Below are positions 2,264 to 24,569 of a DNA stretch of 34,471 nucleotides, piece after piece. Location: NCBI GenBank assembly GCA_964577045.1, contig CAZNWL010000001.1, forward strand, positions 1 to 34,471, in the 5' to 3' direction. The translations under genes were made by a program, and so were the position numbers. Origin of the DNA: an uncultured Planctomycetia bacterium. GTDB lineage: Bacteria > Omnitrophota > Gorgyraeia > Duberdicusellales > 4484-171. The notes beneath the pieces are model-generated. The model searched no databases. It saw only the letters and a list, made by a program, of their open reading frames with translations, and was not told the DNA's origin. Within the stretch, counting starts at the first letter, position 1. Each line of letters begins with the position of its first letter.

Positions 2264-2266
2264 AGC

Positions 2267-5276: not shown

Positions 5277-5338
5277 CCTATTCATTAACAGTAGCTTATA
5301 GTTAGTTCACCCCCCTTTTTTAATTTCGATAAAAAAGG

Positions 5339-5366
5339 TTGACAGATTAAAGTAGGGCTTTATAAT
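5339..5366 (+). promoter_or_regulatory. Sigma70-type promoter candidate: TTGACA (5339-5344), 16-nt spacer, TATAAT (5361-5366)
   Basis: Both hexamers match the consensus exactly. The site lies in the 128-nt gap between sat-cysC and the MarR gene, about 39 nt upstream of the ATG at 5405. Confidence 0.5.
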
Positions 5367-5387
5367 ATGTTCAATTAATGAACATAT
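5365..5387. promoter_or_regulatory. Operator-like perfect inverted repeat ATATGTTCA-N5-TGAACATAT, overlapping the -10 box and the predicted transcription start
   Basis: The 9-bp arms are perfectly complementary with a 5-nt spacer. The repeat sits directly upstream of a winged-helix MarR regulator gene. Confidence 0.45.
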
Positions 5388-5404
5388 AGATAAGTCTTTC
5401 TTGA

Positions 5405-12291: not shown

Positions 12292-13280
12292 TGCTGGAAG
12301 AAAATACAGTAACTCTTAAAGAAAAAAGAATTTTAAACCTTAACTTATATAGAAAGCTTTATCTGGCCAGAACGAGCGAGGAAAAAATCATTGAGCATTA
12401 CCCTGCCAATAAGATGAAGACGCCCATGCATATGTCCATGGGTTCAGAAGCTATCGCCTGCGGAGTATGCCAGGCTCTCGCTAAAGAGGACCAGATTTTC
12501 GGCACTTACCGCTCGCATGCTATTTATCTGGCTAAAACCGGAGATATTGACGGTTTTTTCGCTGAAATGTACGGAAAAGACAGCTCAATTATTAAGGGTA
12601 AAGGCGGCTCCATGCATTTGTGCTGCCCGGAATACGGATTCCTGGGGAGTTCAGCCATAGTCGGCAGCGCTATCGCAGTTGCCGTAGGCGCAAGCTTTGC
12701 CAATAAAAGAGCCGAGAATAATAGAATTGTGGCGGTATTTTTCGGTGACGGGGCCACGGACGAAGGCGCTTTTTGGGAAAGCCTAAACCTTGCCTGTTTA
12801 ATGAAACTGCCGATTTTATTTATTTGCGAAGATAACGGTTTGGCTATCCAAACCCGGCCGGCTACGCGCTGCGGTTATAATTCCATTACCGATATTGTTG
12901 CAAAATTTAACTGTAATGTATTTAAAGAGAAGAGCACGGACGCCGAAATTATTTACGAATTGGCTGCTACGGCAATTGAAAAAATGCGTTCTAACCAGAT
13001 GCCCTGCTTTTTGCATTTAAGGTATTACCGTTATTTAGAGCATGTGGGCATAAACAAAGATTTTCATCTGGGATACCGTTCCCAGGAAGAATTTGAAGAG
13101 TGGCTGAAAGCAGACCCGGTAAAAATTCAGAGAGAAAAGCTTCTAGCTTTAGAATACAGCGATGCAGAGTTAAAGAAGCTGGAAAAAGATATTGAAGACA
13201 GGATAAATAAAAGTATAGAGAAAGCGGACAAGGCTCCTTTCTGCTCTGAAGATGAAGCTCATAGAGGAGTATTCGGATGA
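12291..13280 (+). CDS. Thiamine-diphosphate-dependent dehydrogenase E1 alpha-like subunit
   Basis: YRSH, GKGGSMH and the TPP-binding GDGATDEG...ICEDNG motif are present. I prefer the ATG at 12291 over 12252, because its A is the last base of the gmd TGA stop (TGATG overlap). Confidence 0.75.
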   Translation: MLEENTVTLKEKRILNLNLYRKLYLARTSEEKIIEHYPANKMKTPMHMSMGSEAIACGVCQALAKEDQIFGTYRSHAIYLAKTGDIDGFFAEMYGKDSSIIKGKGGSMHLCCPEYGFLGSSAIVGSAIAVAVGASFANKRAENNRIVAVFFGDGATDEGAFWESLNLACLMKLPILFICEDNGLAIQTRPATRCGYNSITDIVAKFNCNVFKEKSTDAEIIYELAATAIEKMRSNQMPCFLHLRYYRYLEHVGINKDFHLGYRSQEEFEEWLKADPVKIQREKLLALEYSDAELKKLEKDIEDRINKSIEKADKAPFCSEDEAHRGVFG

Positions 13281-14314
13281 GGAAGATTACTTATTGCGAA
13301 GCCGTCAAAGAAGCCATGGCCCAGGAGATGGAAAGAGATTCCCGGGTTTTTGTCTACGGCTTGGGCACGCCTGATTTGGGAGTTTTTGGCAGCACTGTGG
13401 GGTTAGAGAAAAGGTTCGGCTCTGCGCGCTGTTTTGATACGCCGATTTCCGAAGACAGCATGGTCGGCTTTGGCCTGGGCGCGGCGATTAACGGCCTGCG
13501 GCCGATTCATGTGCATATCCGTATGGATTTTCTGCTTCTGGCGATGAATCAGCTGGCGAATATGGTTTCCAGCTTCCGTTATTTATCCGGAGGAAAAATC
13601 GATGTGCCTTTGGTGATACGCGCAGTCATCGGAAGGGGCTGGGGCCAGGGCTGCCAGCACAGCAAGAGCGCTTATGCTTCGTTTGCCCATATCCCGGGTT
13701 TAAAATTAGTGATGCCGACTACGCCGCGCGACGCTAAAGGGCTGCTTATTTCAGCTATTCGCGACAATAATCCGGTAATTTGTGTGGAGCACCGCTGGCT
13801 GTATTGGCAGGAAGGCGAAGTGCCCGAGGAGCCTTTTGCTATTCCCATAGGAGAATCAAATGTTTTACACCAGGGAAAAGATATTACCATTATCGCTATT
13901 TCCTGGATGAACGTAGAAGCGCTTAAGGCAGCAGAAATTTTAGCGAAAAGAGGAATCAGCGTGGAGATAGTTGACCCCCGGACAATTTCTCCGTTCAATG
14001 AAGATATAGCGGTTAAATCAGTGGAGAAGACCGGTTATTGTATTGTAGCTGACAATGACTGGCTGCATTGCGGCTTCAGCGCCGAAATAGCGGCGCGGAT
14101 TTCCGAAAAATGTTTTGGCAAATTAAAATATCCGGTGCAGAGAATCGGTTTTGCTCCTACTCCCTGCCCTACAGCCAGGCATTTAGAGAACGAGTTTTAT
14201 CCTAACGCAGCCAAGATTATCCGTGCGGTGGAGAAAATGCTGGATTTAAGCCCTGCGGATTTAGAAGGAGAAGAGTTTTACAGCCACGAAAAGAGGTTCA
14301 AAGGCCCTTTCTAA
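13277..14314 (+). CDS. Thiamine-diphosphate-dependent dehydrogenase E1 beta-like subunit (transketolase-like pyrimidine-binding and C-terminal domains)
   Basis: R.FDTPISE....G.G.GAA..G.RP, the HS/PGLK.V.P...DAKGLL region and a C-terminal transketolase-like domain are present. The start overlaps the alpha subunit stop. Confidence 0.8.
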   Translation: MRKITYCEAVKEAMAQEMERDSRVFVYGLGTPDLGVFGSTVGLEKRFGSARCFDTPISEDSMVGFGLGAAINGLRPIHVHIRMDFLLLAMNQLANMVSSFRYLSGGKIDVPLVIRAVIGRGWGQGCQHSKSAYASFAHIPGLKLVMPTTPRDAKGLLISAIRDNNPVICVEHRWLYWQEGEVPEEPFAIPIGESNVLHQGKDITIIAISWMNVEALKAAEILAKRGISVEIVDPRTISPFNEDIAVKSVEKTGYCIVADNDWLHCGFSAEIAARISEKCFGKLKYPVQRIGFAPTPCPTARHLENEFYPNAAKIIRAVEKMLDLSPADLEGEEFYSHEKRFKGPF

Positions 14315-14326
14315 TTAAAAAAAGCT

Positions 14327-15112
14327 ATGGATTTAGGATTAAAAGGAAAATTTGCTTTAGTCACTGGCGCAAGCCAAGGTATCGGCCGCGCTATTGCTTT
14401 AGCCCTGGCCAAAGAGGGCTGCAATGTCGCTATTTGCGCCCGCCAGCAGGAAAAATTAGAGAGCGTGGTTAAAGAGATAAAGAAAAAAAATGTTTCGGCT
14501 TTAGGATTGCCTTGCGACGTGACGAACCTTTCCGATATTGATAAAACAGTTAAGGCAGCAGCCAATAAATTTAAAACTTTGCATATTCTGGTTAACAATG
14601 CCGGCGGCGGCGGAAGATGGGGCGATGAAGATATCACCAAAACTAAAGACGAAGTCTGGGAAGAAGTTTTCGCCAAAAATGCTTTAGCGGCTGCCCGTTT
14701 TACCGCCAGGGTTTTACCTTATATGCAGAAACAAAAATGGGGCAGAGTAGTTACCAATAGTTCTATAGCCGCCTTGGAAGGTCCGGTCAGGCCTTGGTAT
14801 GGTATGGCTAAATCCGCGGAAATCAGCCTGATGAAAAATCTAGCGATGAAACCTGAACTTTCCGGCTGTGGCATAACTTTTAACACTATTTGCCCGGGCG
14901 CAATTATGGTTCCGGATACGGGCTGGGATTTGGAAAGGAAAAAAAATCCTAAAAAGTTTAAGCAGTGGGCGAAGGCGCATTTTCCTTTAGGCCGGCCGGG
15001 AACGCCCGAAGAAGTTGCAAGTTTAGTTGTTTTTATTTGCTCGGAACAGGCTGGATATTTAAACGGAGCAGCTATTGCCATTGACGGCGCAGAATCCCGA
15101 AGCTACCGATGA
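14327..15112 (+). CDS. Classical short-chain dehydrogenase/reductase (FabG-like)
   Basis: VTGASQGIGRAIA, NNAG, the catalytic YGMAK and a C-terminal G..I..DG motif are present. Confidence 0.8.
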   Translation: MDLGLKGKFALVTGASQGIGRAIALALAKEGCNVAICARQQEKLESVVKEIKKKNVSALGLPCDVTNLSDIDKTVKAAANKFKTLHILVNNAGGGGRWGDEDITKTKDEVWEEVFAKNALAAARFTARVLPYMQKQKWGRVVTNSSIAALEGPVRPWYGMAKSAEISLMKNLAMKPELSGCGITFNTICPGAIMVPDTGWDLERKKNPKKFKQWAKAHFPLGRPGTPEEVASLVVFICSEQAGYLNGAAIAIDGAESRSYR

Positions 15113-16110
15113 TAGAAGATAAAGTTTTAAAAAGTTTTTCCGGCAAAATTTGCCTGGTCACCGGCGGAACCGGATTAATCGGCAGACAGGTGGTGGATAT
15201 TTTAGTTTCTGCCGGGGCCAAGGTGAAAATTGTTTCTCTGGATAAGCTGAAAGTTAATTCTGCGGCCGAACATATCCTGGGCGACCTTTCAGATTTTAGC
15301 TTTTGTAAAACTTTGACTAAAGATATGGATTTTGTTTTTCACGTCGCTGGCATCGGAGCTTCGGTAAAAGCGGCCAAAGCTAAAATTGCCAGCCATTTCG
15401 TGCCGATGTTGATGATGAATACCAATATTCTGGAAGCTTGCCGCTTGAATAAAGTTAAAAAAATAGTCTATACCAGCTCCGTAGGCGCTTATGCTCCGGC
15501 GGAGATTTTTAAAGAGTCAGAGTATAAATTAGCCAGCGAGCCTATGGATTTTGCCGGCTGGGCCAAGCGCATGGCTGAAGCGCAAATCCACGCTTATAAA
15601 ACGGAATACGGCTTAGATAATTTTGCCATTGTGCGGCCTTCTAATGTTTACGGCCCCGGAGACAATTTTCATCCGGAAAATTCCTTGGTCATACCTTCAT
15701 TGATATACCGCATCTACCACAAAGAAGATCCCTTAGTGGTTTGGGGAGACGGCTCGGCAGTGAGAGATTTTGTTTTCAGCCGCGATGCGGCCGAAGGGAT
15801 TATTCTGGCTTTATATTATGGCACCGGCGCAGGATTTGTGAACTTAGGCAGCGGAAAACCCGTATCCATTAAAGAGTTGGTAGAAACATTAAGGTCATTT
15901 ATCGATTTTAACTATGTCTTTGACGCAAAAAAGCCTAAAGGCGCGGATAAAAGAATTATGGATTTAACTAAAGCCAAAGAGCTTATTCACTATGAGCCTT
16001 CTACCAGCTTAAAAGAAGGTTTAAAAAAGACTTGGGAGTGGTTTATCGCTCATCCGGATGAACACACCAAAAAGATGAATTATTTCCAAGAAACTTTGGC
16101 GGCGAAATAA
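15109..16110 (+). CDS. Divergent NAD-dependent epimerase/dehydratase-fold protein (extended SDR)
   Basis: VTGGTGLIG, YTSSVGAY and VRPSNVYGPGDNF are present. By eye, the canonical YxxxK is not obvious; the aligned region reads FAGWAK. Confidence 0.7.
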   Translation: MIEDKVLKSFSGKICLVTGGTGLIGRQVVDILVSAGAKVKIVSLDKLKVNSAAEHILGDLSDFSFCKTLTKDMDFVFHVAGIGASVKAAKAKIASHFVPMLMMNTNILEACRLNKVKKIVYTSSVGAYAPAEIFKESEYKLASEPMDFAGWAKRMAEAQIHAYKTEYGLDNFAIVRPSNVYGPGDNFHPENSLVIPSLIYRIYHKEDPLVVWGDGSAVRDFVFSRDAAEGIILALYYGTGAGFVNLGSGKPVSIKELVETLRSFIDFNYVFDAKKPKGADKRIMDLTKAKELIHYEPSTSLKEGLKKTWEWFIAHPDEHTKKMNYFQETLAAK

Positions 16111-16112
16111 AG

Positions 16113-18083
16113 ATGAATGATAAGAAAATAAAAGTAGGTTTAGTGCAAATCGGCGATAAATTCGGAGAGCAGTATTACCTTCCTTATTCTATCGCCACTT
16201 TGCAGGCTTATGCTCAAAGCTACCTGAAAAACCCGGAGAGTTTTAGTTTTCTCTTACCTATATATAAGCGCTTAAGCCTTAATGAGGCAGTGAGAGAGCT
16301 TCAACCCAGCCAGATTATCTTTTTCAGCGCCTATGTCTGGAATTACGCTTTGAGTTTGGCTATTGCTAAAAAGATTAAACAAAATAATCCGGAAACCATA
16401 ATAGTTTTCGGCGGGCCGCAGATTCCCGAAGAAGTTAAAGCCTTAGAGTTTTTCTTGCGGGAAAACCCCTTTGTGGATTTGACAGTTTACGGAGAAGGGG
16501 AGATCCCGGTTTTAAAGATTTTAGAAAACTTTAAAACTAAAGATTGGAAGAACGTTCCTTCCGTTGGCTTTATCGGCCCCCAGGATAAGTTTAGCTATAA
16601 CCAAAAAATAGAGCGCATTAGCAAGCTCGACCAGATTCCTTCGGCTTATTTAAGCGGAGTTTTTGAGCCTTTGCTTAAGGCTAACCCCAATGAAGAGTGG
16701 TCTGCGCTTTTAGAGACCAACCGCGGCTGCCCGTATGCTTGCAGTTACTGCTATTGGGGGAAAAAAGAGCGCAGTAAAGTTTATCAGTTTGACTGCGAAA
16801 GAGTGTTTAAGGAAATTGACTGGTTCAGCCGCCATAAAATCCAGTTTGTTTTCTGCTGCGACGCTAATTTCGGGCTGTTCAAGCGCGATTTAGATATTGC
16901 TTTGAAAGTTTCCCAGAATAAAAATAAATACGGCTATCCTCAAGGTTTTTCCGTGCAGAATACCAAGAATTCAAGCGCCGATATTTTTAATCTGCAAAAA
17001 GTTTTAACGGAAAATGGCTTACAGCGCGGAGTAAATCTCGCCCTGCAGTCAGTTAATCCCCAGACTTTAAAAAGCATAAACCGCAATAATATCCCGGCGG
17101 CAATGTATAAAGAACTGCAAACTATGTTTTCTAAGGAGAATATCCCGACCTTCAGCGACATTATCATCGGCTTGCCCGAAGAAACTTATGAAAGCTTTAC
17201 CGAGGGTGTTTCCGAGATAATTGCCAGCGGCCAGCATAACCGCATTCAATTTATTAACCTGGCGATTTTAGAAAACTCCCAGATGGCCGAGAAAGCTTAT
17301 CAGGAAAAATATGGTTTAGCGGCCAAAGAAATAAAGAGCATCGCTCATCATACCAGCCTCAATGAGGATTTAGAAGTCAGCGATACGCAAAAGCTGGTGG
17401 TGGCTACCAAAGCTATGCCGGCAAAAGATTGGGTAAGAACGCGGGTATTTTCCTGGATGGTTTCCTTGTTATATTTCAATAAGTTATTGCAGATTCCATT
17501 TTTAGTTTTAAATAAGCTTTCTAATGCGAGCGCTAAAGAGTTGGCCGAGGCTTTTATAGATGAGAAAAAATATCCGATGATTACCCGCGTGGTGGATTTT
17601 TTCAGGGAAAAAGCCAAAGCCATGCAAGCCGGCGGAAATGAATTCGTGGCTGCGCCTGAATACCTGAATATCTGGTGGCCGGCAGACGAATATATGTTTA
17701 TCAAACTTTGCTTGGAAAACTTTGATGAGTTTTATCGGGCTTGCGGCCAGCTGCTGCGTGAGTTTATTGCCGAGAAAAAAATAGAGTTTGCGGACGCGCT
17801 TTTAGTTGAAAGCCTGGCTTTAAATAGAGCTTTGATTAAACTGCCCGGAGAGAATCAGGATTTAGAAATAAACTGCGCTTATAATCTTTATGATTTTTAT
17901 CAAAGCCTTTTAAAAAACGAGGTTTTGCCTTTGAGAAAAGTAAGCTCTAAATATCTTGCGCTACGCAGCCAGAGCCAATGGGATTTAGCCGATTGGTTAA
18001 GAGAAGTGGTCTGGTATGGCACAAAGCGCGGGGCTTACCTTTATGAGTGTAGAGCCAGTAAAATAACAGAAGTGGCGGTTTAA
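16113..18083 (+). CDS. B12-binding-domain radical SAM enzyme (class B), 656 aa with a long C-terminal extension
   Basis: It has an N-terminal Rossmann-like cobalamin-binding-type domain (IIFFSAYVWN...IIVFGGPQ). The CxxxCxxC motif is NRGCPYACSYCYW (Cys codons at 16728-16751). Confidence 0.8.
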   Translation: MNDKKIKVGLVQIGDKFGEQYYLPYSIATLQAYAQSYLKNPESFSFLLPIYKRLSLNEAVRELQPSQIIFFSAYVWNYALSLAIAKKIKQNNPETIIVFGGPQIPEEVKALEFFLRENPFVDLTVYGEGEIPVLKILENFKTKDWKNVPSVGFIGPQDKFSYNQKIERISKLDQIPSAYLSGVFEPLLKANPNEEWSALLETNRGCPYACSYCYWGKKERSKVYQFDCERVFKEIDWFSRHKIQFVFCCDANFGLFKRDLDIALKVSQNKNKYGYPQGFSVQNTKNSSADIFNLQKVLTENGLQRGVNLALQSVNPQTLKSINRNNIPAAMYKELQTMFSKENIPTFSDIIIGLPEETYESFTEGVSEIIASGQHNRIQFINLAILENSQMAEKAYQEKYGLAAKEIKSIAHHTSLNEDLEVSDTQKLVVATKAMPAKDWVRTRVFSWMVSLLYFNKLLQIPFLVLNKLSNASAKELAEAFIDEKKYPMITRVVDFFREKAKAMQAGGNEFVAAPEYLNIWWPADEYMFIKLCLENFDEFYRACGQLLREFIAEKKIEFADALLVESLALNRALIKLPGENQDLEINCAYNLYDFYQSLLKNEVLPLRKVSSKYLALRSQSQWDLADWLREVVWYGTKRGAYLYECRASKITEVAV

Positions 18084-18086
18084 ACT

Positions 18087-19073
18087 ATGGATTTAGCCGG
18101 AAAAAATATTTTGGTTACCGGAGCTGCGGGGATGATGGGAAGCCATGCTTTGCTAGCTCTAAAAGATATGCCGGTGAAAGTGCGGGCAGTGGATTGGCAA
18201 AAAAAGCCGCTAGTGTTTTCTAATAATATCGCGCATTTAGAAGCGGATTTAACCGATGCCAAAGAATGCCAGAAAGCAGTGAGAGGCATGGATTATGTTT
18301 TAAACTTTGCCGCTAAAATTTCGCGCCGGGCAAAAACTTACGACTATTTACTCACTAATTTAAAGATAAACGCGCTGATGCTAGAAGCGGCTTATCAATC
18401 CGGAGTGAAAAAATACCTTTGGCTAAGCAGCAGCGTGGCTTATCCGCCGCAAAATCATCCTTTGAAAGAAGAGGAGATGTTTTTAGCTGACCCGGCGGAT
18501 AATTATTTTGGCATTGGCTGGACTACGCGCTATCTGGAAAACTTATGCCGGATGTATGCCACCAAAGTGAGTAATCCGATGATTACGATTGTGCTTCGGC
18601 CTACGGCGATTTACGGAGAATACGCGGATTTTAACCCGGAAACATCCCATGTTTTACCGGCCTTAATCCGCAAAGTAGTTGAGCGGCAGAGCCCCATAGA
18701 GATTTGGGGAGGCGGCGAGGTGAAAAGGGATTTTGTTTATGCCGGCGACGTGGCCAGAGCCTGCATTTTAGCTTTAGAGAAAACAGATAATTTTAGCGCG
18801 CTGAATATCGGCTTGGGCAAATCATACTCCAGCAAAGAATTATTAGATTCAATTTTAAAAGTTGATGATTATAAGACTGCTAAAGTAGTTTTTGATAAAA
18901 CTAAAGGCAAAAATCTTCATTCCATTGAGGTTGACTGCAGCAAAGCCAAAAAACTTTTAGGCTGGAAGCCCGAAGTTTCGTTGGAAGAAGGCATAAAAAG
19001 AACTATAGCTTGGTATAAGCAAAATAATGAAATTCCAAATCACAAATTCCAAATTACAAATAAATTCCAATGA
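18087..19073 (+). CDS. Divergent NAD-dependent epimerase/dehydratase-fold protein (extended SDR)
   Basis: VTGAAGMMGSH, WLSSSVAYP and LRPTAIYGEY are present. It shares YFGxxWTxxYLExLC with the 20498 paralogue. The last ~13 codons (IPNHKFQITNKFQ) are encoded by the left arm of the palindromic repeat. Confidence 0.7.
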   Translation: MDLAGKNILVTGAAGMMGSHALLALKDMPVKVRAVDWQKKPLVFSNNIAHLEADLTDAKECQKAVRGMDYVLNFAAKISRRAKTYDYLLTNLKINALMLEAAYQSGVKKYLWLSSSVAYPPQNHPLKEEEMFLADPADNYFGIGWTTRYLENLCRMYATKVSNPMITIVLRPTAIYGEYADFNPETSHVLPALIRKVVERQSPIEIWGGGEVKRDFVYAGDVARACILALEKTDNFSALNIGLGKSYSSKELLDSILKVDDYKTAKVVFDKTKGKNLHSIEVDCSKAKKLLGWKPEVSLEEGIKRTIAWYKQNNEIPNHKFQITNKFQ

Positions 19074-19167
19074 CCAAAATTCAAATGACCGAAACAATTA
19101 GTTTTTTTAATTTTGAAAATTTGAATTTGGAATTTATTTGTAATTTGGTGCTTGGAATTTGGAATTT
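19030..19167. repeat. AT-rich palindromic element built from 4 direct plus 4 inverted copies of AAATTC(C)AA, with a perfect 22-bp inverted-repeat core (19049-19070 / 19127-19148)
   Basis: Direct copies start at 19030, 19044, 19062 and 19077. Inverted copies lie at 19120-19128, 19127-19135, 19152-19160 and 19158-19167. The outer 10-mers at 19030-19039 and 19158-19167 are also perfectly complementary. A T7 run (19102-19108) lies near the centre of symmetry. Confidence 0.6.
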
Positions 19168-19184
19168 AAGGAGTAACAACACGA

Positions 19185-20495
19185 ATGGTTAAGGTTGGAA
19201 TAATTATACCTAGTTGGCACTATTGGGTGAATCCCTGCCGGATTCAGCCGATATATGAGATGTATTTTGCTACGCTCATTGCAGCGCGCTTTAAAAAAAG
19301 CGAGGTTGAGGTTGACATTATTGACACTCGCGGCATCCGCAAAGACCAGCAGATTTACCATATCCCCGAAAGGGATCTTTACCTCTATTGGATAGCCAAA
19401 ACCGGCGACTATTCCAGAATCGCGGAGCTGGTCAAAGAAATAAAAGCCAAATACCCGCAAACTAAGCACGCTGCCGGCGGAACGCACATTGATATCTTCG
19501 GCGAAAAGTGCTCAAGAGATTTTGACGCGCTGGTAATTGGCCCGGGAGAAGAGTCGTTTAGCGCGATTATCAAGGATGTCCAGAAAGGCAGCCTGAAAAA
19601 ACTCTATCAGTCCGACTATAAAGATGTGCATTATGCGGATTATCCGTTTATCAAGCGGCATTTTTTGCCGGAGGCGGCAATAGTGAACAACCTTTTGTTT
19701 GAAAAATACGGCGCAAATATCAGGGCTACCTGCGTGCTTTTCTCGCGCGGCTGCAGTTTCCGCTGCCGCTACTGTGTTTACAATGTGCCGGGAAAAGTGC
19801 AGATGAGAAGGCCAGAAGCTATCACCGAAGAAATAGAATATTTGAAGCGAGACTATAAAGTAGAAGCGATTAATTTAAAGGATGAGATTTGCATTCCCGT
19901 AACCAGAGATGTAGCTTTACCTTATTTAGAAGCGATTAAGAAAGCCCGCGTTTTGTGGCGCGGCCAAACCACGGTTTTAGGGGTTACCGAAGAAAAAATC
20001 GCTTTGGCTAAGGAGTCAGGGTGCATGGAACTGGCTACTGGCGTAGAAAGCGTGTCGCAGCAGGTTTTGGATATCATTGATAAGAAGATTACCACCGAAG
20101 ACGTGCGCAATTTTATCCGGCTGTGTAAAAAGTATGCTATCAAGGTCAAGATGTGTTTGGTTTTTGGTCTTCCCGGTGAGCCGCAGACTATTGTTGAGGA
20201 TACCAAAAGGTTTATAGAGGAGGCAAAGCCCGATTATATCAGCCTTTCTGGCCTTGACCCTTTACCCGGCTCGGATATTTACGCCAACAGCGCCTATTAT
20301 GGCATCAAAAACATCGACACTAACTGGGAAAAACACGCGCATTTATTATACCGTTTTTCTGATTACGAAGAAGTGGGTTTACCGTTTGAATACGAGAAAG
20401 CCAACAAATGGGGCAAAACCTTCTCCCGTGAGGAGATAATCTCCAACATCCGCCAAACCCAAACCTATTTCCGTGAAAAACAGATGACGTATTAG
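19185..20495 (+). CDS. B12-binding-domain radical SAM enzyme (class B), 436 aa
   Basis: It has an N-terminal B12-binding-like domain. The CxxxCxxC motif is SRGCSFRCRYCVY (Cys codons at 19752-19775). An AAGGAG RBS lies at 19168-19173. Confidence 0.8.
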   Translation: MVKVGIIIPSWHYWVNPCRIQPIYEMYFATLIAARFKKSEVEVDIIDTRGIRKDQQIYHIPERDLYLYWIAKTGDYSRIAELVKEIKAKYPQTKHAAGGTHIDIFGEKCSRDFDALVIGPGEESFSAIIKDVQKGSLKKLYQSDYKDVHYADYPFIKRHFLPEAAIVNNLLFEKYGANIRATCVLFSRGCSFRCRYCVYNVPGKVQMRRPEAITEEIEYLKRDYKVEAINLKDEICIPVTRDVALPYLEAIKKARVLWRGQTTVLGVTEEKIALAKESGCMELATGVESVSQQVLDIIDKKITTEDVRNFIRLCKKYAIKVKMCLVFGLPGEPQTIVEDTKRFIEEAKPDYISLSGLDPLPGSDIYANSAYYGIKNIDTNWEKHAHLLYRFSDYEEVGLPFEYEKANKWGKTFSREEIISNIRQTQTYFREKQMTY

Positions 20496-20497
20496 AT

Positions 20498-21466
20498 ATG
20501 CTTAAACAAAAACTACTAATCTGTGGGGTGTCGGGGTTTATAGGGAGAAATGTCGCCGAACAGTTCGCGAGACGGGGGGAATTTGAGATTACGGGGACGT
20601 ATTGGAAGGCGCCGGAGCCGAGAATCGCTGGCGTGAAGATGGTGAGGGTGGATTTGACCCGCAGAGAAGACGTAGAGAGAGTGGTGAGGGGGGTGGATGT
20701 GATTGTGCAGGCCGCGGCCACGACTTCGGGATCAAAGGAAATACTGGCAAAGCCCTATTACCATGTGACGGATAACGCTTTGATGAATTCGCTGATTTTC
20801 AGGGCGGCGTTTGAGCAGAAGGTAAAGCAGGTAGTGTTTTTCAGCTGCACAGTAATGTATCAGTCAAGCGAAAAGCCCCTGAAGGAAACGGATTTGGATT
20901 TAAACCAGCCCATGCACGAAAGCTATTTTGGCTCGGCCTGGACTAAACTTTACTTAGAGAAGCTTTGCGAGTTTTATTCTAAAATCAGCGCGACCAAATA
21001 CACGGTAGCCCGGCATTCCAATATCTACGGGCCTTATGATAAGTTTGATTTGGAGCGCTCGCATGTTTTCGGCGCGACCATCGCCAAAGTAATGGAAGCC
21101 CAGCAGGGCGGAAAAATCACGGTTTGGGGTTCAGGCGAAGAAGCCAGAGACCTTTTATATGTTTCGGACTTAGTTAATTTTGTGGAATTGGCTTTGCGAA
21201 AGCAAAAGGAAAAATTTGAAATATTCAATGTGGGTTTAGGCGAGGCGATTTCGGTAAAGGATTTAGTGAAAAAGATAATTGCTCTGTCCGGCAAAAAGCT
21301 GGCTATAGATTTTGACCGCGCCAAGCCCGCGATTAAAACTAAACTTTGCCTTAATTGCCAAAAGGCGCGGGAATTATTAGGCTGGAAGCCCGAAGTCTCT
21401 TTGGAGGATGGAATTAAAAATACGATTAAATGGTACGAAGCCAATAAAGAGAAGGTGAGAGTATGA
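20498..21466 (+). CDS. Divergent NAD-dependent epimerase/dehydratase-fold protein (extended SDR)
   Basis: CGVSGFIGRN, VFFSCTVMY and ARHSNIYGPYDKF are present. It is a paralogue of the 18087 gene. Confidence 0.7.
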   Translation: MLKQKLLICGVSGFIGRNVAEQFARRGEFEITGTYWKAPEPRIAGVKMVRVDLTRREDVERVVRGVDVIVQAAATTSGSKEILAKPYYHVTDNALMNSLIFRAAFEQKVKQVVFFSCTVMYQSSEKPLKETDLDLNQPMHESYFGSAWTKLYLEKLCEFYSKISATKYTVARHSNIYGPYDKFDLERSHVFGATIAKVMEAQQGGKITVWGSGEEARDLLYVSDLVNFVELALRKQKEKFEIFNVGLGEAISVKDLVKKIIALSGKKLAIDFDRAKPAIKTKLCLNCQKARELLGWKPEVSLEDGIKNTIKWYEANKEKVRV

Positions 21467-22533
21467 TTATCTCAAGGACTCCATTCAGGATTTCCTTTTT
21501 CGGCGGCGGCACAGATTATCCGGTCTGGTATAAGGAGAATGAAGGCGCGGTGATTTCCGCTTCCATTAACAAATATTGCTATATCACCTGCCGGTATTTG
21601 CCGCCCTTTTTCGGCTATAAATACCGCATTGTTTATTCGCAGAGAGAAGCCGTGTATGAGCTGAACGAGATTAAGCATCACTCGGTGAGAGAGTGCTTGC
21701 GCTTTATGGATTTAGCCAACGGAGTAGAAGTTCATCATGACGGCGATTTGCCGGCGCGCACCGGCCTCGGCTCAAGCTCAAGCTTTACGGTTGGGCTTTT
21801 AAACGCCTTATACGCTTTAAAAGGAAAAATGGTGACCAAAAAACAGCTGGCCATGGATGCGATAAAAGTAGAGCAGGAGATGATTAAGGAAAACGTCGGC
21901 TCGCAAGACCAGACCATTGCCGCTTTTGGCGGGTTTAATAAGATTACTTTCGGCCGCAATTACAACATTGAAGTCCAGCCTATTACTTTGGACTTTGATA
22001 AGTCCACGCATTTTCAAAAGCATTTGATGCTTTTCTTCACCGGATTTTCGCGCACGGCTTCGGAGATTGCCGGGGAGCAGATTAAAGAAACGGCTAATAA
22101 AACTAAAGAGCTGAAAGCGATGCATGCCATGGTTGAGGCGGCCGCGGATATTTTAAACCAGAGCCGCGATAACTTTGACGCCTTTGGCAAACTGCTGAAC
22201 GAAGCCTGGAAGATAAAGCGCAGCTTGACTTCCAAGATTTCCACTCCTTTTGTTGACGAGATTTACGAAACCGCTTTAAGAGCCGGAGCTTCCGGCGGAA
22301 AACTGCTCGGCGCTGGCGGCGGCGGGTTTATTCTGTTTTTCGTTAAGCCAGAGCGCCAGGCTAAAGTAAGAGCAGCTTTGCGCAAACTCCTTTATGTTCC
22401 TTTTGGCTTTGACACTTTAGGCAGCCAGATAATTTACTATGCGCCTGACCATCATACTTGGTGGGGCATGGATAACCAGCTGAAAACAGCCGAACAAGTG
22501 ATACAGGAAGATTCAACTATTACTGAACAATGA
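21463..22533 (+). CDS. GHMP-family sugar kinase (D-glycero-D-manno-heptose 7-phosphate kinase HddA-like)
   Basis: The GHMP ATP-binding motif PARTGLGSSSSFTVGLLNAL and a C-terminal GAGGGGF motif are present. The architecture matches the galactokinase/mevalonate-kinase-related kinases of GDP-heptose pathways. Confidence 0.7.
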   Translation: MIISRTPFRISFFGGGTDYPVWYKENEGAVISASINKYCYITCRYLPPFFGYKYRIVYSQREAVYELNEIKHHSVRECLRFMDLANGVEVHHDGDLPARTGLGSSSSFTVGLLNALYALKGKMVTKKQLAMDAIKVEQEMIKENVGSQDQTIAAFGGFNKITFGRNYNIEVQPITLDFDKSTHFQKHLMLFFTGFSRTASEIAGEQIKETANKTKELKAMHAMVEAAADILNQSRDNFDAFGKLLNEAWKIKRSLTSKISTPFVDEIYETALRAGASGGKLLGAGGGGFILFFVKPERQAKVRAALRKLLYVPFGFDTLGSQIIYYAPDHHTWWGMDNQLKTAEQVIQEDSTITEQ

Positions 22534-23240
22534 TAGCGCCAAAAACAACGGATGCGGTGATTCTTTGCGGGGGCAAGGGCGAGCGCTTGCAATCAGTGGT
22601 AAGCGATAAGCCCAAAGTTTTGGCGGAGGTGAATGGACAGCCGTTTTTAGAAATTTTGGTAGCTAACCTCAAACGTTTCGGCTTTCAGCGTTTTATTTTA
22701 AGCGTGGGCTATAAAAGAGAAGCCATCATTGATTATTTCAAAAACAGAAAGGAGATAGTTTTTTCCGAAGAAAAAACCGCGCTGGGCACGGGCGGCGGCT
22801 TAAAAAAAGCCCGCAGCCTGATTAAAAGCGATACGTTTCTTGCGCTGAACGGCGACTCTTTTTGCGCCTTGGATTTTAACGAGTTTTTCAGCTTTCATCA
22901 GCAGAAAAAATCCCTTTTAAGCATAGTTTTAACTAAAAGCTTGGAAGTTAAAGATTACGGAACCGTTACTTTAGATGATTCGGGAAGGATAAAAAGCTTT
23001 CAGGAGAAGATAGAGGGAAACAGCGTGCGCTTAGTAAATGCCGGCATTTATTTGATGCAAAAGGAGATTTTCAGCCAGATGCCGGAAAAGTCAGCTTTTT
23101 CTCTGGAATACGATTTTTTCCCTAAAGTAAAAAGCAGTTTTGGCTATATCACTTCAGCCAAACTTTATGATATCGGAACGCCAGAACGTTATCAGATATT
23201 TTTGGGGACAGGTCCCACTCGAATAGGCCCAGTAAAATAA
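22530..23240 (+). CDS. Sugar-1-phosphate nucleotidyltransferase (HddC-like guanylyltransferase)
   Basis: The N-terminal ILCGGKGERL...KPK.LAEVNGQPF signature is present and the 236-aa size fits. It is translationally coupled to the GHMP kinase (ATGA). Confidence 0.65.
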   Translation: MIAPKTTDAVILCGGKGERLQSVVSDKPKVLAEVNGQPFLEILVANLKRFGFQRFILSVGYKREAIIDYFKNRKEIVFSEEKTALGTGGGLKKARSLIKSDTFLALNGDSFCALDFNEFFSFHQQKKSLLSIVLTKSLEVKDYGTVTLDDSGRIKSFQEKIEGNSVRLVNAGIYLMQKEIFSQMPEKSAFSLEYDFFPKVKSSFGYITSAKLYDIGTPERYQIFLGTGPTRIGPVK

Positions 23241-23312: not shown

Positions 23313-24569
23313 ATGGCTAAAAAAATTATTGATAACATTAGGTTTATAAAGCGGGACCTGTCCCCAAAAATGAAGATTCCGTTTGGCACGATTACAGTGA
23401 GCGAGAAGTCAAGGCAGCTGATTAACGCGGCTTTGGATGCAAACCGCCTTTCTTCGGGTAAATACGTGCGCGAGTTTGAAGAGAAGTTTGCCGCGCTGGT
23501 CGGGGTAAAAGAAGCCGTGGCAGTGGCCAGCGGCACTGATGCTTTGGCTTTGGCCTTGGCTGTGCTTTATGATTTCGGCGCCAGAAAAAACGATGAAGTA
23601 ATTATTCCGGCTTTGTCTTTTGTGGCTACGGGTAATGCGGTGCTGCAAGCCGGGTTTAAGCCGGTTTTCGTGGATGTGGATTTAAAAACTTTAAACATCA
23701 TCCCGGAAAAAATAGAAGCGGCAATCAGCGCGAAAACTCGGGCTATTCTTCCGGTACATTTGATGGGAAAGCCCGCGGCTATGGAGGCGATAAACCGCAT
23801 CGCTAAAAAGCGCAAGCTCTATGTGATTGAAGACGCGGCTGAAGCCCATGGCGCAGAATATAAAGGTAAGCGCGCCGGAAGCCTGGCTGATATGGGAGCT
23901 TTCAGCCTTTATGTGGCGCATATTATTACTACTGCCGAAGGCGGGATAGTCACTACTGATAATTCTGCATTCGCCGAAATCTTAAGGTCTTTGCGTTCAC
24001 ACGGCCGGGCTTGTAAATGCAGGAGCTGTGTGTTAAATACTGCCTCCAGTTTTTGCGACAAAAGATTCAAGCAGGGGAAAAATAAAGATATCCGCTTTAT
24101 CTTTGAGCGCATTGGTTTTTCCTGCAAAATGAATGAGCTGGAAGCAGCTATCGGCATCGGCAATTTAGACAACTATCAGCAAATTCTGGATAAAAGAAGG
24201 GCGAATTTGCTTTATTTAATCAATAAGTTTAAAGAGTTTCGGCCATATTTAACCACTATCTGCGAAGAGGCCGGCGAAAAAATCGGGCCGCATGCGTTTC
24301 CTTTTATCGTGGGTAAAAAGGCGAAGTTCAGCCGCGAAGAATTAAGCGGATTTTTAGAAAAGAGAGGAGTGGATACCCGCACTTTGTTTTCCTCAATCCC
24401 TACGCAATGCGCGGGATTTAAATTTTTAGGGCATAAGTTGGGGGATTTTCCTAATGCCGAATATATCGGAGAAAACGGCATACATATCGGGGTGCATCAG
24501 GATTTAAATAAGGGGCACATGGAATATTTTATTAACTTGATTCACGAATTTTTAAAAGCCAATGCCTAA
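23313..24569 (+). CDS. DegT-fold PMP-dependent NDP-4-keto-6-deoxy-sugar 3-dehydratase candidate (E1/RfbH/ColD-like)
   Basis: GAFSLYVAHIITTAEGG aligns residue for residue with GAFSFFPSKNLGAFGDGG of the upstream DegT. This places His203 (23919-23921) where the PLP lysine sits. A Cys cluster CKCRSCVLNTASSFCDKRF follows (24012-24056). Confidence 0.6.
   Translation: MAKKIIDNIRFIKRDLSPKMKIPFGTITVSEKSRQLINAALDANRLSSGKYVREFEEKFAALVGVKEAVAVASGTDALALALAVLYDFGARKNDEVIIPALSFVATGNAVLQAGFKPVFVDVDLKTLNIIPEKIEAAISAKTRAILPVHLMGKPAAMEAINRIAKKRKLYVIEDAAEAHGAEYKGKRAGSLADMGAFSLYVAHIITTAEGGIVTTDNSAFAEILRSLRSHGRACKCRSCVLNTASSFCDKRFKQGKNKDIRFIFERIGFSCKMNELEAAIGIGNLDNYQQILDKRRANLLYLINKFKEFRPYLTTICEEAGEKIGPHAFPFIVGKKAKFSREELSGFLEKRGVDTRTLFSSIPTQCAGFKFLGHKLGDFPNAEYIGENGIHIGVHQDLNKGHMEYFINLIHEFLKANA

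What the first reader, a model, noticed from the sequence alone, without database searches (positions are those of the whole stretch)
15109..21466. Alternating array SDR - B12 radical SAM - SDR - B12 radical SAM - SDR, with atypical SDR active sites
Five consecutive genes alternate between divergent extended-SDR-fold proteins (15109, 18087, 20498) and cobalamin-domain radical SAM enzymes (16113 and 19185), both with intact CxxxCxxC motifs.

By eye, I cannot find the catalytic YxxxK in any of the three SDRs. The 18087 and 20498 proteins share a YFGxxWTxxYLExLC block where it should be, and the 15109 protein has FAGWAK.

Class B radical SAM enzymes acting on sugars are known mainly from antibiotic pathways, for example C-methylations such as GenK. 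A duplicated SDR/rSAM module inside a surface-glycan locus suggests iterative radical tailoring of a nucleotide sugar, by C-methylation, epimerisation or rearrangement. The SDR-fold proteins may act as nucleotide-sugar-binding partners or as non-canonical redox enzymes. The 656-aa rSAM also has an unassigned C-terminal extension of about 200 aa.
Basis: partly seen in the sequence, partly recalled or inferred. Interest (0 to 1): 0.7.

Follow-up and report, generated by a model that had tools for sequence, protein, structure and literature searches.

The report
Tyrosine-less sugar reductases paired with radical SAM enzymes
Five adjacent genes in a cell-surface sugar locus pair two different radical SAM enzymes, one a close structural relative of the TokK cobalamin methylase, with three sugar-nucleotide SDR proteins that lack the usual catalytic tyrosine, and the arrangement recurs across many phyla with no described function.

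Summary
Genes at 15109, 18087 and 20498 are extended-SDR proteins. Genes at 16113 and 19185 are radical SAM enzymes with intact CxxxCxxC motifs.

None of the three SDRs has YxxxK on the catalytic helix. In about 190 relatives from more than 15 phyla the canonical Tyr column is A, P, V, L or I.

This is not a duplicated module. The two radical SAM enzymes are only remote homologues (hhalign E 6e-9, 21% identity). The three SDRs are old, separately conserved paralogue groups (29-39% identity).

The 656-aa enzyme is a TokK/CysS-type cobalamin-dependent C-methyltransferase. It scores 257 bits against TokK and keeps Trp76 and Trp215. Its "unassigned" C-terminal 200 aa is the TokK-type third domain (TM 0.84 over the full length).

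The 436-aa enzyme belongs to a separate, tightly conserved family of unknown reaction. An SDR that lacks both Tyr and Lys almost always lies immediately upstream of it.

Two SDR groups carry Tyr one helical turn earlier (YxxΦxxxK, where Φ is a hydrophobic residue). That is the spacing of FabI-type enoyl reductases.

The conserved neighbours are an NDP-sugar 4,6-dehydratase, E1-like TPP enzymes, a GHMP kinase and a nucleotidyltransferase. They point to tailoring of a branched-chain nucleotide sugar.

I found no literature on the pairing. The chemistry is inferred, not shown.

The parts
15109..16110 (+). aSDR1: an extended SDR derived from GDP-fucose-synthase-like proteins. It has GGTGLIG and FAGWAK. 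The canonical Tyr is Ala, Lys is kept, and the His179 equivalent is Leu or Met.
   Evidence: PF01370 151 bits; NF047922 144 bits against a cut-off of 500. The orthologous group in 14 loci has K-4 = P or A, G-W-A-K-R-M-A-E invariant, and no conserved Tyr.
16113..18083 (+). rSAM1: a TokK/CysS-type cobalamin-dependent radical SAM C-methyltransferase with three domains. The Cys motif spans nt 16728-16751.
   Evidence: TokK (7kdx) 257 bits, E 2.5e-75, aligned 19-454 to 19-452; CysS 175 bits. Trp76 and Trp215 are conserved and TokK Arg280 is Ser here. AF2 pLDDT 89.9; Foldseek to TokK TMq 0.84 over 656 columns. NF033712 KedN5 family 252 bits against a cut-off of 700.
18087..19073 (+). aSDR2: an extended SDR lacking both the canonical Tyr (Ile143) and Lys (Thr147). 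Motif YFGIGWTTR spans nt 18504-18530. This group lies directly upstream of rSAM2 in most loci.
   Evidence: PF01370 150 bits. AF2 pLDDT 93.4 with a continuous helix 138-159. Foldseek TM 0.86 to GDP-mannose 3,5-epimerase and 0.83-0.84 to a C. jejuni heptose 4-reductase. An aSDR2-type gene is the upstream neighbour of 16 of 28 rSAM2 homologues. In all listed cases, the copy next to rSAM2 has S, T, N, V or A at the Lys column.
19185..20495 (+). rSAM2: a 436-aa radical SAM enzyme with a divergent B12-type N-terminal domain. It belongs to a tightly conserved family of unknown reaction. The Cys motif spans nt 19752-19775.
   Evidence: PF04055 63.4 bits and PF02310 28.0 bits (below cut-off). No NCBIfam family is near its cut-off. 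The family alignment has 63% mean column identity. The best solved structure is AprD4 at 64.7 bits, core only. hhalign to the rSAM1 family gives 95.9% probability. 1680 representatives score E<=1e-30 and about 13 are full-length close ones. More distant relatives have strong PF02310 hits.
20498..21466 (+). aSDR3: an extended SDR with YFGSAWTK (nt 20924-20947), giving Y-x6-K spacing. The Ser107 equivalent is Cys and the His179 equivalent is kept.
   Evidence: PF01370 148 bits; NF047922 152 bits against a cut-off of 500. The group is conserved in 11 loci, with Y at K-7 in 11/11, W at K-2 in 11/11, K in 11/11 and C at K+7 in 11/11. The FFSC motif is shown.
11311..12291 (+). Context: a canonical NDP-sugar 4,6-dehydratase (SSSEVYG, YAVSK). 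It co-occurs with the module.
   Evidence: PF16363 260 bits. dTDP, GDP and CDP dehydratase models score similarly. A homologue is present in 15 of 24 related loci.
12252..14314 (+). Context: pyruvate-dehydrogenase-E1-like TPP enzyme, alpha subunit (12252-13280) and beta subunit (13277-14314).
   Evidence: PF00676 173 bits; PF02779 and PF02780. NCBIfam PDH E1 alpha 248 bits and beta 300 bits. Present in 15-17 of 24 related loci.
14327..15112 (+). Context: a classical SDR resembling acetoin/butanediol reductase or FabG, placed directly between the E1 genes and aSDR1.
   Evidence: PF13561 178 bits; NCBIfam. Conserved in 7 of 24 loci.
21463..23240 (+). Context: a GHMP sugar kinase (21463-22533) and a sugar-1-phosphate nucleotidyltransferase (22530-23240). 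These are the likely activation steps.
   Evidence: HddA model 145 bits against 600; HddC model 155 bits against 300. The GHMP kinase is present in 15 of 24 loci. L035 adds a GmhA-like SIS gene.
23313..24569 (+). Context: a DegT/RfbH-like PLP enzyme (sugar aminotransferase or 3-dehydratase).
   Evidence: PF01041 327 bits; RfbH model 274 bits against 423.

Best explanation
The five genes are the core of an old, widely transferred operon that tailors a nucleotide-activated sugar for a surface glycan.

**Shown by homology.**
- rSAM1 is a three-domain TokK/CysS-type cobalamin-dependent radical SAM C-methyltransferase.
- rSAM2 is a separate class-B-like radical SAM family.
- The three SDRs have the GDP-fucose-synthase / GDP-mannose-epimerase fold and keep the dinucleotide-binding glycine motif. 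The canonical catalytic Tyr is replaced in all three. Lys is also replaced in aSDR2.

**Inferred from conserved neighbours.**
- A GHMP kinase and a nucleotidyltransferase activate the sugar.
- A canonical 4,6-dehydratase makes an NDP-4-keto-6-deoxy sugar.
- The E1-like TPP enzyme adds a two-carbon (acetyl) branch, as proposed for eurekanate and yersiniose.

**Proposed mechanism.**
- rSAM1 abstracts a hydrogen with 5'-deoxyadenosyl radical and transfers methyl from methylcobalamin, possibly more than once. The likely target is an unactivated carbon next to a carbonyl: the ring carbon beside C-4, or the acetyl branch.
- rSAM2 carries out a second radical step on the same scaffold.
- aSDR3 and its Lys-containing relatives have Tyr moved one helical turn (YxxΦxxxK, where Φ is a hydrophobic residue, as in FabI). 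I propose they deliver NAD(P)H hydride to a position other than the ring C-4 carbonyl, either a branch carbonyl or an enone.
- aSDR2 has lost Tyr, Lys and further substrate-site residues. I propose it is the dedicated partner of rSAM2 and prepares or presents its substrate.
For: **rSAM1.**
- It scores 257 bits (E 2.5e-75) against TokK and 175 bits against CysS.
- Trp76 and Trp215, which the TokK paper names as the residue under cobalamin and the active-site Trp, are conserved.
- The full-length fold matches TokK at TM 0.84.

**SDRs.**
- Fold TM to GME and GFS is 0.83-0.86.
- The Tyr column is V, L, A or I in 114 of 119 relatives, with the Gly motif, Ser and His kept.
- Tyr sits at K-7 in 108 of 119 and Trp at K-2 in 118 of 119.
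- YxxMxxxK is the published motif of enoyl-reducing "divergent" SDRs.
- The AF2 helix 138-159 is continuous, which fixes the register.

**Pairing and context.**
- An aSDR lies next to 19 of 28 rSAM2 homologues and within two genes of 22 of 28.
- Of seven aSDR relatives looked up independently of the radical SAM search, six lie beside a B12 radical SAM gene of one family or another.
- The 4,6-dehydratase, E1 alpha/beta, transketolase, aldo-keto reductase, RmlC-like and GHMP kinase genes each occur in 13-17 of 24 loci. These loci include Omnitrophota, Nitrospirota, SAR11, SAR324, CPR phyla and archaea.
- E1-like heterodimers are the proposed acetyl-branching enzymes acting on 4-keto sugars.
Against: - No substrate, product or activity is known for any member.
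- The kinase and nucleotidyltransferase score far below the curated cut-offs of the heptose enzymes they resemble, so the sugar is unidentified.
- TokK and CysS act on pantetheinylated substrates, not nucleotide sugars. TokK's substrate-binding Arg280 is Ser here.
- rSAM2's B12 domain is below the Pfam cut-off. TokK's Trp76 aligns to Gly in rSAM2. Its best solved relative is AprD4, a dehydratase rather than a methylase.
- The FabI resemblance is a matter of motif spacing only. The cofactor motif and fold class differ.
- One aSDR relative (L037) has E1 genes but no radical SAM gene within 8 kb. The SDR link may therefore be as much to the TPP step as to the radical step.
- No SDR-rSAM fusion was found.
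- The loci were gathered starting from these same proteins, so the co-occurrence counts are not an unbiased census.
Confidence: 0.45

Rival explanations
1. The Tyr-less SDRs are not enzymes. They act as nucleotide-sugar-binding subunits that hold the substrate for the radical SAM enzymes. This applies above all to aSDR2, which also lacks Lys. It is the first reader's "binding partner" idea.
For: aSDR2-type proteins directly upstream of rSAM2 always lack both Tyr and Lys. They also lose an Asn (A174 column) and an Arg (I280 column) that their Lys-containing relatives conserve at 88-95%. The aSDR2 and rSAM2 genes are tightly adjacent and often overlap.
Against: The GxxGxxG motif, Ser115, His188 and about 40 other positions stay at least 90% conserved in the Lys-less subgroup. 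That indicates a constrained ligand site. No gene fusions were found. Relatives occur without a radical SAM gene. No complex prediction could be run.
Confidence: 0.2
2. rSAM2 and aSDR2 form an AprD4/AprD3-like deoxygenation pair. In this reading rSAM2 is a cobalamin-independent radical dehydratase that converts a diol to a ketone, and the SDR reduces that ketone.
For: AprD4 is the best solved-structure match for the rSAM2 family profile (64.7 bits, E 6.5e-17). The rSAM2 B12 domain falls below the Pfam cut-off. The family occurs in SAR11 genomes, a group generally held to lack B12 metabolism (my own knowledge, not tested here).
Against: The AprD4 family model scores only 51.7 bits against a cut-off of 500. 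The PhpK, BzaD, HpnJ and BchE models score higher, at 82-92 bits. The AprD4 match covers only the radical SAM core. Relatives at 170-200 bits have strong B12 domains. An SDR without Tyr and Lys is an odd ketoreductase.
Confidence: 0.15
3. The radical SAM enzymes, at least rSAM1, act on a pantetheine-, CoA- or carrier-linked acyl group and not on a nucleotide sugar. That acyl group would be made by the E1 enzyme and the FabG-like SDR and later attached to an amino sugar.
For: Both solved homologues, TokK and CysS, use pantetheinylated substrates, and the shared C-terminal domain binds the pantetheine arm in TokK. E1 alpha/beta and a FabG-like SDR lie immediately upstream, and an aminotransferase lies downstream.
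Against: No carrier protein, CoA ligase or N-acyltransferase was identified in the window. The rSAM genes are interleaved with nucleotide-sugar-type SDRs. The conserved partners are a 4,6-dehydratase, an RmlC-like protein and a sugar kinase.
Confidence: 0.12
4. The SDRs are ordinary epimerase/reductases, and the missing triad is an alignment artefact.
For: One pairwise phmmer alignment, to 4zrm, places Tyr140 of aSDR2 on the catalytic Tyr.
Against: In that same alignment Lys falls on Gly. MAFFT with canonical SDRs, the family profile against GDP-fucose synthase and the continuous predicted helix all leave no Tyr-x3-Lys. aSDR1 has no conserved Tyr at all in this segment.
Confidence: 0.03

Closest known systems
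TokK / ThnK (carbapenem C-6 alkylation) and CysS (cystobactamid), with the KedN5 family: cobalamin-dependent radical SAM iterative C-methyltransferases
   Same: rSAM1 shares the three-domain architecture, the CxxxCxxC motif, Trp76 beneath the corrin and the active-site Trp215. The full-length fold matches at TM 0.84 to TokK and 0.75 to CysS.
   Different: Identity is only about 26%. It scores 252 bits against the KedN5-family cut-off of 700. TokK's carboxylate-binding Arg280 is Ser. The C-terminal domain is unrecognisable by sequence. The gene sits in a surface-glycan operon and not in an antibiotic cluster. The known substrates are pantetheinylated.
GDP-L-fucose synthase, GDP-mannose 3,5-epimerase and C. 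jejuni GDP-6-deoxy-4-keto-heptose 4-reductase (extended SDRs)
   Same: These are the best sequence and fold matches for the three SDRs. The profile scores 166 bits to GFS, and TM is 0.86 to GME and 0.83-0.84 to 8ewu. The Gly motif, the Ser107 equivalent and, in aSDR2 and aSDR3, the His179 equivalent (SHV motif) are kept.
   Different: Scores are 144-152 bits against a cut-off of 500. The Tyr136 column is hydrophobic. The Cys109 column is G, T or V. Lys140 is lost in aSDR2, His179 is lost in aSDR1, and Ser107 is Cys in aSDR3.
"Divergent" SDRs: FabI/InhA enoyl-ACP reductases and dienoyl-CoA reductase
   Same: The active-site spacing is Tyr-x-x-hydrophobic-x-x-x-Lys (YxxMxxxK). aSDR3 has YFGSAWTK and many relatives have YF.VGW.K. 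This spacing goes with hydride addition to a C=C bond next to a carbonyl.
   Different: The fold subclass differs: two-domain extended versus single-domain. The cofactor motif differs: GxxGxxG versus GxxxxxSxA. There is no specific homology. This is a lead for mechanism and not evidence of family membership.
AprD4/AprD3 (apramycin C-3 deoxygenation): a radical SAM diol dehydratase with an NADPH reductase
   Same: A radical SAM enzyme is paired with a nicotinamide-dependent partner acting on a sugar. AprD4 is the top solved match for the rSAM2 family.
   Different: The match is weak and covers the core only (64.7 bits; the family model scores 51.7 against 500). The substrate there is a pseudodisaccharide and not a nucleotide sugar.
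TPP-dependent acetyl branching of 4-keto sugars: YerE in yersiniose, and E1-like EvdU5/EvdS3 (proposed) in eurekanate
   Same: A 4,6-dehydratase followed by a pyruvate-dehydrogenase-E1-like heterodimer and a reductase lies directly upstream of the array.
   Different: Those pathways contain no radical SAM enzymes or Tyr-less SDRs. The E1 role is itself only proposed in the literature.
Class B radical SAM sugar methylases of aminoglycoside pathways (GenK, GenD1), Fom3 acting on a CMP-linked substrate, and the TunA (SDR)/TunB (radical SAM) pair of tunicamycin
   Same: These are radical SAM chemistry on carbohydrate or nucleotide-linked substrates, in one case alongside an extended SDR. This comes from my own knowledge and was not tested here.
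   Different: None appeared among the sequence or structure matches. All belong to antibiotic pathways. None is reported with SDRs that lack the catalytic Tyr.

Membership tests
Extended SDR (PF01370; "extended" class of Kavanagh et al. 2008) | Rossmann fold with [ST]GxxGxxG | tested here: met
   The motifs are TGGTGLIG, TGAAGMMG and CGVSGFIG. PF01370 scores 148-151 bits.
Extended SDR (PF01370; "extended" class of Kavanagh et al. 2008) | Two-domain fold with a C-terminal substrate domain | tested here: met
   The aSDR2 AF2 model has pLDDT 93.4 and TM 0.80-0.86 to GME, GFS and GalE structures over about 320 columns. The other two SDRs rest on Pfam coverage only.
Extended SDR (PF01370; "extended" class of Kavanagh et al. 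2008) | YxxxK active-site motif | tested here: not met
   The Tyr and Lys columns read A/K, I/T and S/K for the three proteins. No YxxxK lies on the catalytic helix.
GDP-L-fucose synthase (NCBIfam NF047922) | Score at or above the curated cut-off of 500 bits | tested here: not met
   The three SDRs score 144, 147 and 152 bits. A real family-like member in the same window (10367-11314) scores 428 bits.
GDP-L-fucose synthase (NCBIfam NF047922) | Ser107/Tyr136/Lys140 plus the epimerisation pair Cys109/His179 | tested here: not met
   Tyr and Cys are absent in all three. Lys is absent in aSDR2, His is absent in aSDR1, and Ser is Cys in aSDR3.
"Divergent" SDR (FabI/InhA type) | Active-site motif YxxMxxxK | tested here: inconclusive
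   The spacing is met in aSDR3 (YFGSAWTK) and in Lys-type relatives. In aSDR2 Lys is missing, and in aSDR1 Tyr is missing.
"Divergent" SDR (FabI/InhA type) | Cofactor motif GxxxxxSxA and single-domain architecture | tested here: not met
   The proteins have GxxGxxG and a two-domain extended fold.
TokK/ThnK/CysS/KedN5 cobalamin-dependent radical SAM methylases (rSAM1) | CxxxCxxC cluster motif in a radical SAM core | tested here: met
   Cys206, Cys210 and Cys213; PF04055 51.8 bits.
TokK/ThnK/CysS/KedN5 cobalamin-dependent radical SAM methylases (rSAM1) | N-terminal cobalamin Rossmann domain with Trp76 under the corrin, and active-site Trp215 | tested here: met
   Both Trp residues align identically in a gap-free stretch and are invariant in 30 family members. 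PF02310 alone scores 28.7 bits, below its 32.1 cut-off.
TokK/ThnK/CysS/KedN5 cobalamin-dependent radical SAM methylases (rSAM1) | Third, C-terminal substrate domain | tested here: met
   Foldseek to 7kdx gives TMq 0.84 over 656 columns. There is no sequence-level match.
TokK/ThnK/CysS/KedN5 cobalamin-dependent radical SAM methylases (rSAM1) | KedN5-family curated cut-off (NF033712, 700 bits) | tested here: not met
   252 bits. rSAM1 is a relative outside the curated subfamily.
TokK/ThnK/CysS/KedN5 cobalamin-dependent radical SAM methylases (rSAM1) | Cobalamin binding and methyl transfer | not testable with these tools
   This needs protein chemistry.
Class B (B12-binding) radical SAM (rSAM2) | B12-binding domain (PF02310, at least 32.1 bits) N-terminal to the radical SAM core | tested here: inconclusive
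   PF02310 scores 28.0 bits. hhalign to the TokK-like family gives 95.9% probability from column 55 onward, but Trp76 aligns to Gly74. Relatives at 170-200 bits have PF02310 at 35-108 bits.
AprD4-family radical SAM diol dehydratase (NF033070) (rSAM2) | Curated cut-off of 500 bits | tested here: not met
   51.7 bits. The profile against AprD4 (6fd2) scores 64.7 bits over the core only.

The most novel reading that the evidence does not exclude
A widespread, uncharacterised route to alkyl-branched or chain-extended sugars in the surface glycans of many mostly uncultured phyla, including SAR11, CPR bacteria and some archaea. In this route, TokK-like iterative cobalamin methylases work on nucleotide sugars. 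A new clade of extended SDRs has also swapped the universal YxxxK centre for a FabI-like YxxΦxxxK centre (Φ = hydrophobic residue), or lost it altogether. These SDRs would act as nucleotide-sugar ene- or branch-carbonyl reductases, or as obligate partners of the radical SAM enzymes.
Probability: 0.35. Interest if true: 0.8.

Novelty: new variant of a known kind. Interest (0 to 1): 0.62.

Why it matters
Cobalamin-dependent radical SAM methylases acting on sugars are known almost only from antibiotic pathways. Here a TokK-type enzyme and a second radical SAM family sit in ordinary cell-surface glycan operons of very many environmental lineages. That implies a class of C-alkylated or rearranged sugars that nobody has yet seen in glycan structures.

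The accompanying SDR clade contradicts the textbook rule that nucleotide-sugar SDRs use Ser-Tyr-Lys. It offers a natural experiment on how hydride chemistry is redirected within the SDR fold.

One carrier, Rhodospirillum sp. A1_3_36 (locus L027), is an isolate and not a metagenome bin. Both the glycan and the enzymes could therefore be studied directly.

Tried and rejected
- **Source of the window.** Exact look-ups of window proteins found no contig record. The organism stays unknown. The nearest locus is an unnamed MAG (L002/L006).
- **C-terminal region of rSAM1.** Searched alone against PDB sequences, it gave only noise. The domain was assigned by fold comparison instead.
- **Gene fusions.** I looked for SDR-rSAM fusions among long relatives of rSAM2. 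The extra length came from inteins, tandem radical SAM domains or a methyltransferase domain, with no SDR.
- **Literature.** Four full-text searches and one targeted look-up in a paper found nothing on this pairing. They covered radical SAM with nucleotide sugars, O-antigen, heptose, nonulosonic acid, GHMP kinase and epimerase, plus one SAR11 genome paper. A review of cobalamin domains does not mention AprD4 or GenK.
- **\"The triad is there but misaligned.\"** Considered and rejected. See the fourth rival.
- **\"Recent tandem duplication.\"** Considered and rejected on 21-25% identity between the rSAMs and on separate orthologous groups for the SDRs.
- **\"GDP-heptose is the substrate.\"** Considered as a firm call and not adopted. 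A GmhA-like SIS gene occurs in only 2 of 24 loci, and the kinase and transferase scores are far below cut-off.
- **RNA elements.** No tRNA or Rfam family lies in the window.
- **Not possible with these tools.** Residue-level structural superposition and complex prediction could not be run.

Full report
**What is there**

The window is one long + strand glycan-biosynthesis operon. The five genes of the finding sit at the stated coordinates. They are separated by 2, 3, 111 and 2 nt, and the last overlaps the next gene by 4 nt.

In Pfam, 15109, 18087 and 20498 are NAD-dependent epimerase/dehydratase-family proteins (148-151 bits). 16113 and 19185 are radical SAM proteins with weak B12-domain hits: 28.7 and 28.0 bits against a cut-off of 32.1. 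Both have CxxxCxxC, at residues 206-213 and 190-197. No NCBIfam model comes near its curated cut-off for any of the five. The SDRs score 144-152 bits on GDP-fucose synthase (cut-off 500). The 656-aa enzyme scores 252 bits on the KedN5 family (cut-off 700). The 436-aa enzyme scores at most 92 bits on several class B families.

**The missing YxxxK is real and ancient**

I aligned the three SDRs with five canonical extended SDRs from the same window. The canonical Tyr and Lys columns read A/K (aSDR1), I/T (aSDR2) and S/K (aSDR3), and all canonical proteins show Y/K.

I repeated this with about 60 SDRs taken from 30 related loci. The SDRs fall into three orthologous groups, each with its own conserved pattern:

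- aSDR1: P or A at the Tyr column, Lys kept, and His179 of GDP-fucose synthase replaced by Met or Leu.
- aSDR2: V, L or I at the Tyr column and S, T, N, V or A at the Lys column.
- aSDR3: a small or hydrophobic residue at the Tyr column, Lys kept, and the catalytic Ser replaced by Cys.

Among 119 database relatives of aSDR2, the Tyr column is V79, L21, A8, I6 and Y1. The glycine motif, the Ser and the His of the SHV motif are kept in at least 117 of 119.

Different alignment methods place the two- to three-residue length difference in different spots. None restores Tyr-x3-Lys. The AlphaFold model of aSDR2 (pLDDT 93.4) has one continuous helix from 138 to 159. Counting back from the conserved LC..Y end puts Ile143 and Thr147 at the canonical Tyr and Lys positions. 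The model superposes on GDP-mannose 3,5-epimerase (TM 0.86), GDP-fucose synthases, and the C. jejuni GDP-6-deoxy-4-keto-heptose 4-reductase (TM 0.83-0.84).

**A shifted tyrosine**

Counting from the Lys column, Tyr occupies K-7 in 108 of 119 relatives and in 11 of 11 aSDR3-group proteins. A hydrophobic residue sits at K-4, Trp at K-2, Arg at K+1 (in the aSDR1 and aSDR2 groups and the database relatives; aSDR3 has I, L or V there) and Glu at K+4.

Y-x-x-hydrophobic-x-x-x-K (written YxxΦxxxK below, Φ = hydrophobic residue) is the motif that defines the "divergent" SDRs. Those are the FabI/InhA-type enoyl reductases, which add hydride to a C=C bond next to a carbonyl and do not reduce the carbonyl itself. 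The resemblance is in spacing only. The cofactor motif and fold class remain those of extended SDRs. I treat it as a mechanistic lead, and it applies to aSDR3 and the Lys-type relatives. aSDR2 has the Tyr but no Lys, and aSDR1 has the Lys but no conserved Tyr.

**The 656-aa enzyme**

It matches TokK (7kdx) at 257 bits (E 2.5e-75), residues 19-454 to 19-452, and CysS at 175 bits. TokK carries out three sequential methylations on a carbapenam. Its paper names Trp76, beneath the cobalamin, and Trp215, in the active site, as key residues, and describes a third C-terminal domain that binds the substrate's pantetheine arm.

Both Trp residues are identical in the window protein and invariant in 30 relatives. 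TokK's substrate-binding Arg280 is Ser here, so the substrate differs.

The C-terminal 200 aa give no sequence match, but they are well conserved within the family. The full-length model (pLDDT 89.9) superposes on TokK with TM 0.84 over 656 columns, and on CysS with TM 0.75. The "unassigned extension" is therefore the TokK/CysS-type third domain.

**The 436-aa enzyme**

It belongs to a tightly conserved family: 63% mean column identity across phyla, with lengths of 433-447 aa among the aligned members. Exhaustive profile search finds about 13 full-length close representatives at 50% clustering and 1680 relatives at E<=1e-30.

Relatives at 170-200 bits carry strong B12 domains. Profile-profile comparison links the family to the TokK-like family at 95.9% probability, E 5.7e-9 and 21% identity, although TokK's Trp76 aligns to Gly. 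The best solved match is AprD4, a radical dehydratase, but only over the core (64.7 bits).

Its reaction is unknown. It is not a recent copy of the 656-aa enzyme.

**Conserved neighbourhood**

Relatives of rSAM2 in one-genome-per-species contigs come from many lineages:

- Omnitrophota, Saganbacteria, Elusimicrobia and Victivallales
- Phycisphaerales, Nitrospirota and Gemmatimonadota
- Deltaproteobacteria and SAR324
- several Pelagibacterales, and a Rhodospirillum isolate
- three CPR phyla
- two archaeal bins

An atypical SDR lies next to 19 of 28 rSAM2 homologues and within two genes of 22. The aSDR2 type is the upstream neighbour in 16, often with overlapping stop and start codons. In all listed cases the copy next to rSAM2 is of the Lys-less type. 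The Lys-type copies instead follow an RmlC-like gene.

I also looked up seven aSDR relatives independently of the radical SAM search. Six lie next to a B12 radical SAM gene, of four different size classes. One (L037) has E1 genes but no radical SAM gene within 8 kb.

Across 24 non-redundant loci of at least 12 kb, the recurring partners are:

| Partner gene | Loci (of 24) |
|---|---|
| Canonical NDP-sugar 4,6-dehydratase | 15 |
| E1-like TPP enzyme, alpha / beta | 15 / 17 |
| Split transketolase | 14 |
| Aldo-keto reductase | 15 |
| RmlC-like protein | 13 |
| GHMP kinase | 15 |

Nucleotidyltransferases, NUDIX hydrolases, methyltransferases and PhyH-like oxygenases are less regular partners. 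Two loci add a GmhA-like isomerase, which hints at a heptose.

In the window the array is preceded by the dehydratase, E1 alpha/beta and an acetoin-reductase-like SDR. It is followed by the kinase, a nucleotidyltransferase, an RfbH/DegT-like enzyme, a NeuB fusion and a CMP-sugar synthetase-like gene.

**Most likely mechanism**

The homology assignments above are shown. The following steps are inferred. The kinase and transferase activate a sugar. The dehydratase makes the NDP-4-keto-6-deoxy intermediate. The E1-like enzyme adds an acetyl branch, as proposed for E1-like EvdU5/EvdS3 and shown for YerE.

I then propose four steps:

- rSAM1 methylates, possibly repeatedly, a carbon next to a carbonyl, as TokK does.
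- rSAM2 performs a second radical step.
- The Lys-type SDRs with the shifted Tyr reduce a position other than the ring C-4 carbonyl.
- aSDR2, which has also lost an Asn and an Arg that its Lys-type relatives conserve, serves rSAM2 as a dedicated partner.

My confidence in this package is about 0.45. The sugar-tailoring frame and the methylase call for rSAM1 are much firmer than the individual steps.

**Rivals**

- The SDRs are non-catalytic binding subunits.
- rSAM2 and aSDR2 are an AprD4/AprD3-like deoxygenation pair.
- rSAM1 acts on a pantetheine-linked acyl substrate.
- The missing triad is an alignment artefact.

The evidence for and against each is given in the rival section. The fourth is effectively excluded.

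**Novelty**

NCBIfam (June 2026) has no model for any of the five proteins. Full-text searches found no description of the pairing. The components belong to known superfamilies, so this is a new variant and not a new kind of system. It is nonetheless widespread and chemically unexplained.

**Limits**

No coordinates were available for residue-level superposition, and no complex prediction could be run. The loci were collected starting from these proteins, so the co-occurrence counts are not an unbiased census. The source organism is unknown.

Noticed in passing
window 8303-10363 (+): A dTDP-glucose-4,6-dehydratase-like gene is interrupted by a full-size intein of about 350 aa. The intein is inserted inside the catalytic HIS|TDEVYG motif. 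It starts with Cys, ends in ...FCGN followed by Thr, and carries two LAGLIDADG-type blocks (ILGIFIGDGF and LFEGLMDSDGS). The Pfam intein hit is 30.5 bits, below the 35.8-bit cut-off.
   Followed up: partly
window 24562-26952 (+): A single 796-aa ORF fuses an FAD amine-oxidase / UDP-galactopyranose-mutase-like domain (residues 1-415) to a NeuB-type nonulosonic acid synthase with a SAF domain. A CMP-sugar synthetase-like gene at 31817-32617 suggests that a sialic-acid-like sugar is also made here.
   Followed up: no
window 3387-5276 (+): A fused ATP sulfurylase / APS kinase sits inside the glycan locus, pointing to a sulfated glycan. Sulfotransferases occur in a related locus, L004.
   Followed up: no
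window 5802-6764 (+): This is a canonical extended SDR with the motif YGWEK. It shares the Gly-Trp pair after the Tyr position with the Tyr-less clade (AGWAK, IGWTT), so it may resemble the ancestor of that clade.
   Followed up: partly
proteins P0418, P0438, P0442, P0472, P0478 (relatives of rSAM2): Several B12 radical SAM relatives carry inteins with LAGLIDADG endonucleases between the B12 domain and the radical SAM core.
   Followed up: no
window 32618-34471: The last 1.9 kb has no ORF of 80 aa or more on the + strand. GC falls to 0.35, against about 0.43 elsewhere. No tRNA or Rfam match was found. This may mark the end of the locus.
   Followed up: partly
window 19074-19184: This is the only sizeable gap in the array: 111 nt, AT-rich, with three copies of TTGGAATTT-like words ahead of a GGAG ribosome-binding site for rSAM2. 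In relatives the two genes usually overlap.
   Followed up: no
loci L019, L023, L024, L025 (Pelagibacterales): The rSAM2 family and the atypical SDRs occur in SAR11 single-cell and metagenome genomes. SAR11 is generally thought not to use cobalamin (my own knowledge). This raises the question of whether rSAM2 needs cobalamin at all.
   Followed up: no
L034 and L036, positions about 1000-6600 and 1-4600: Some Omnitrophota loci stack up to four radical SAM genes (two B12-type, one SPASM-type) around one atypical SDR, alongside a carbamoyltransferase and an SxtJ-like gene.
   Followed up: no
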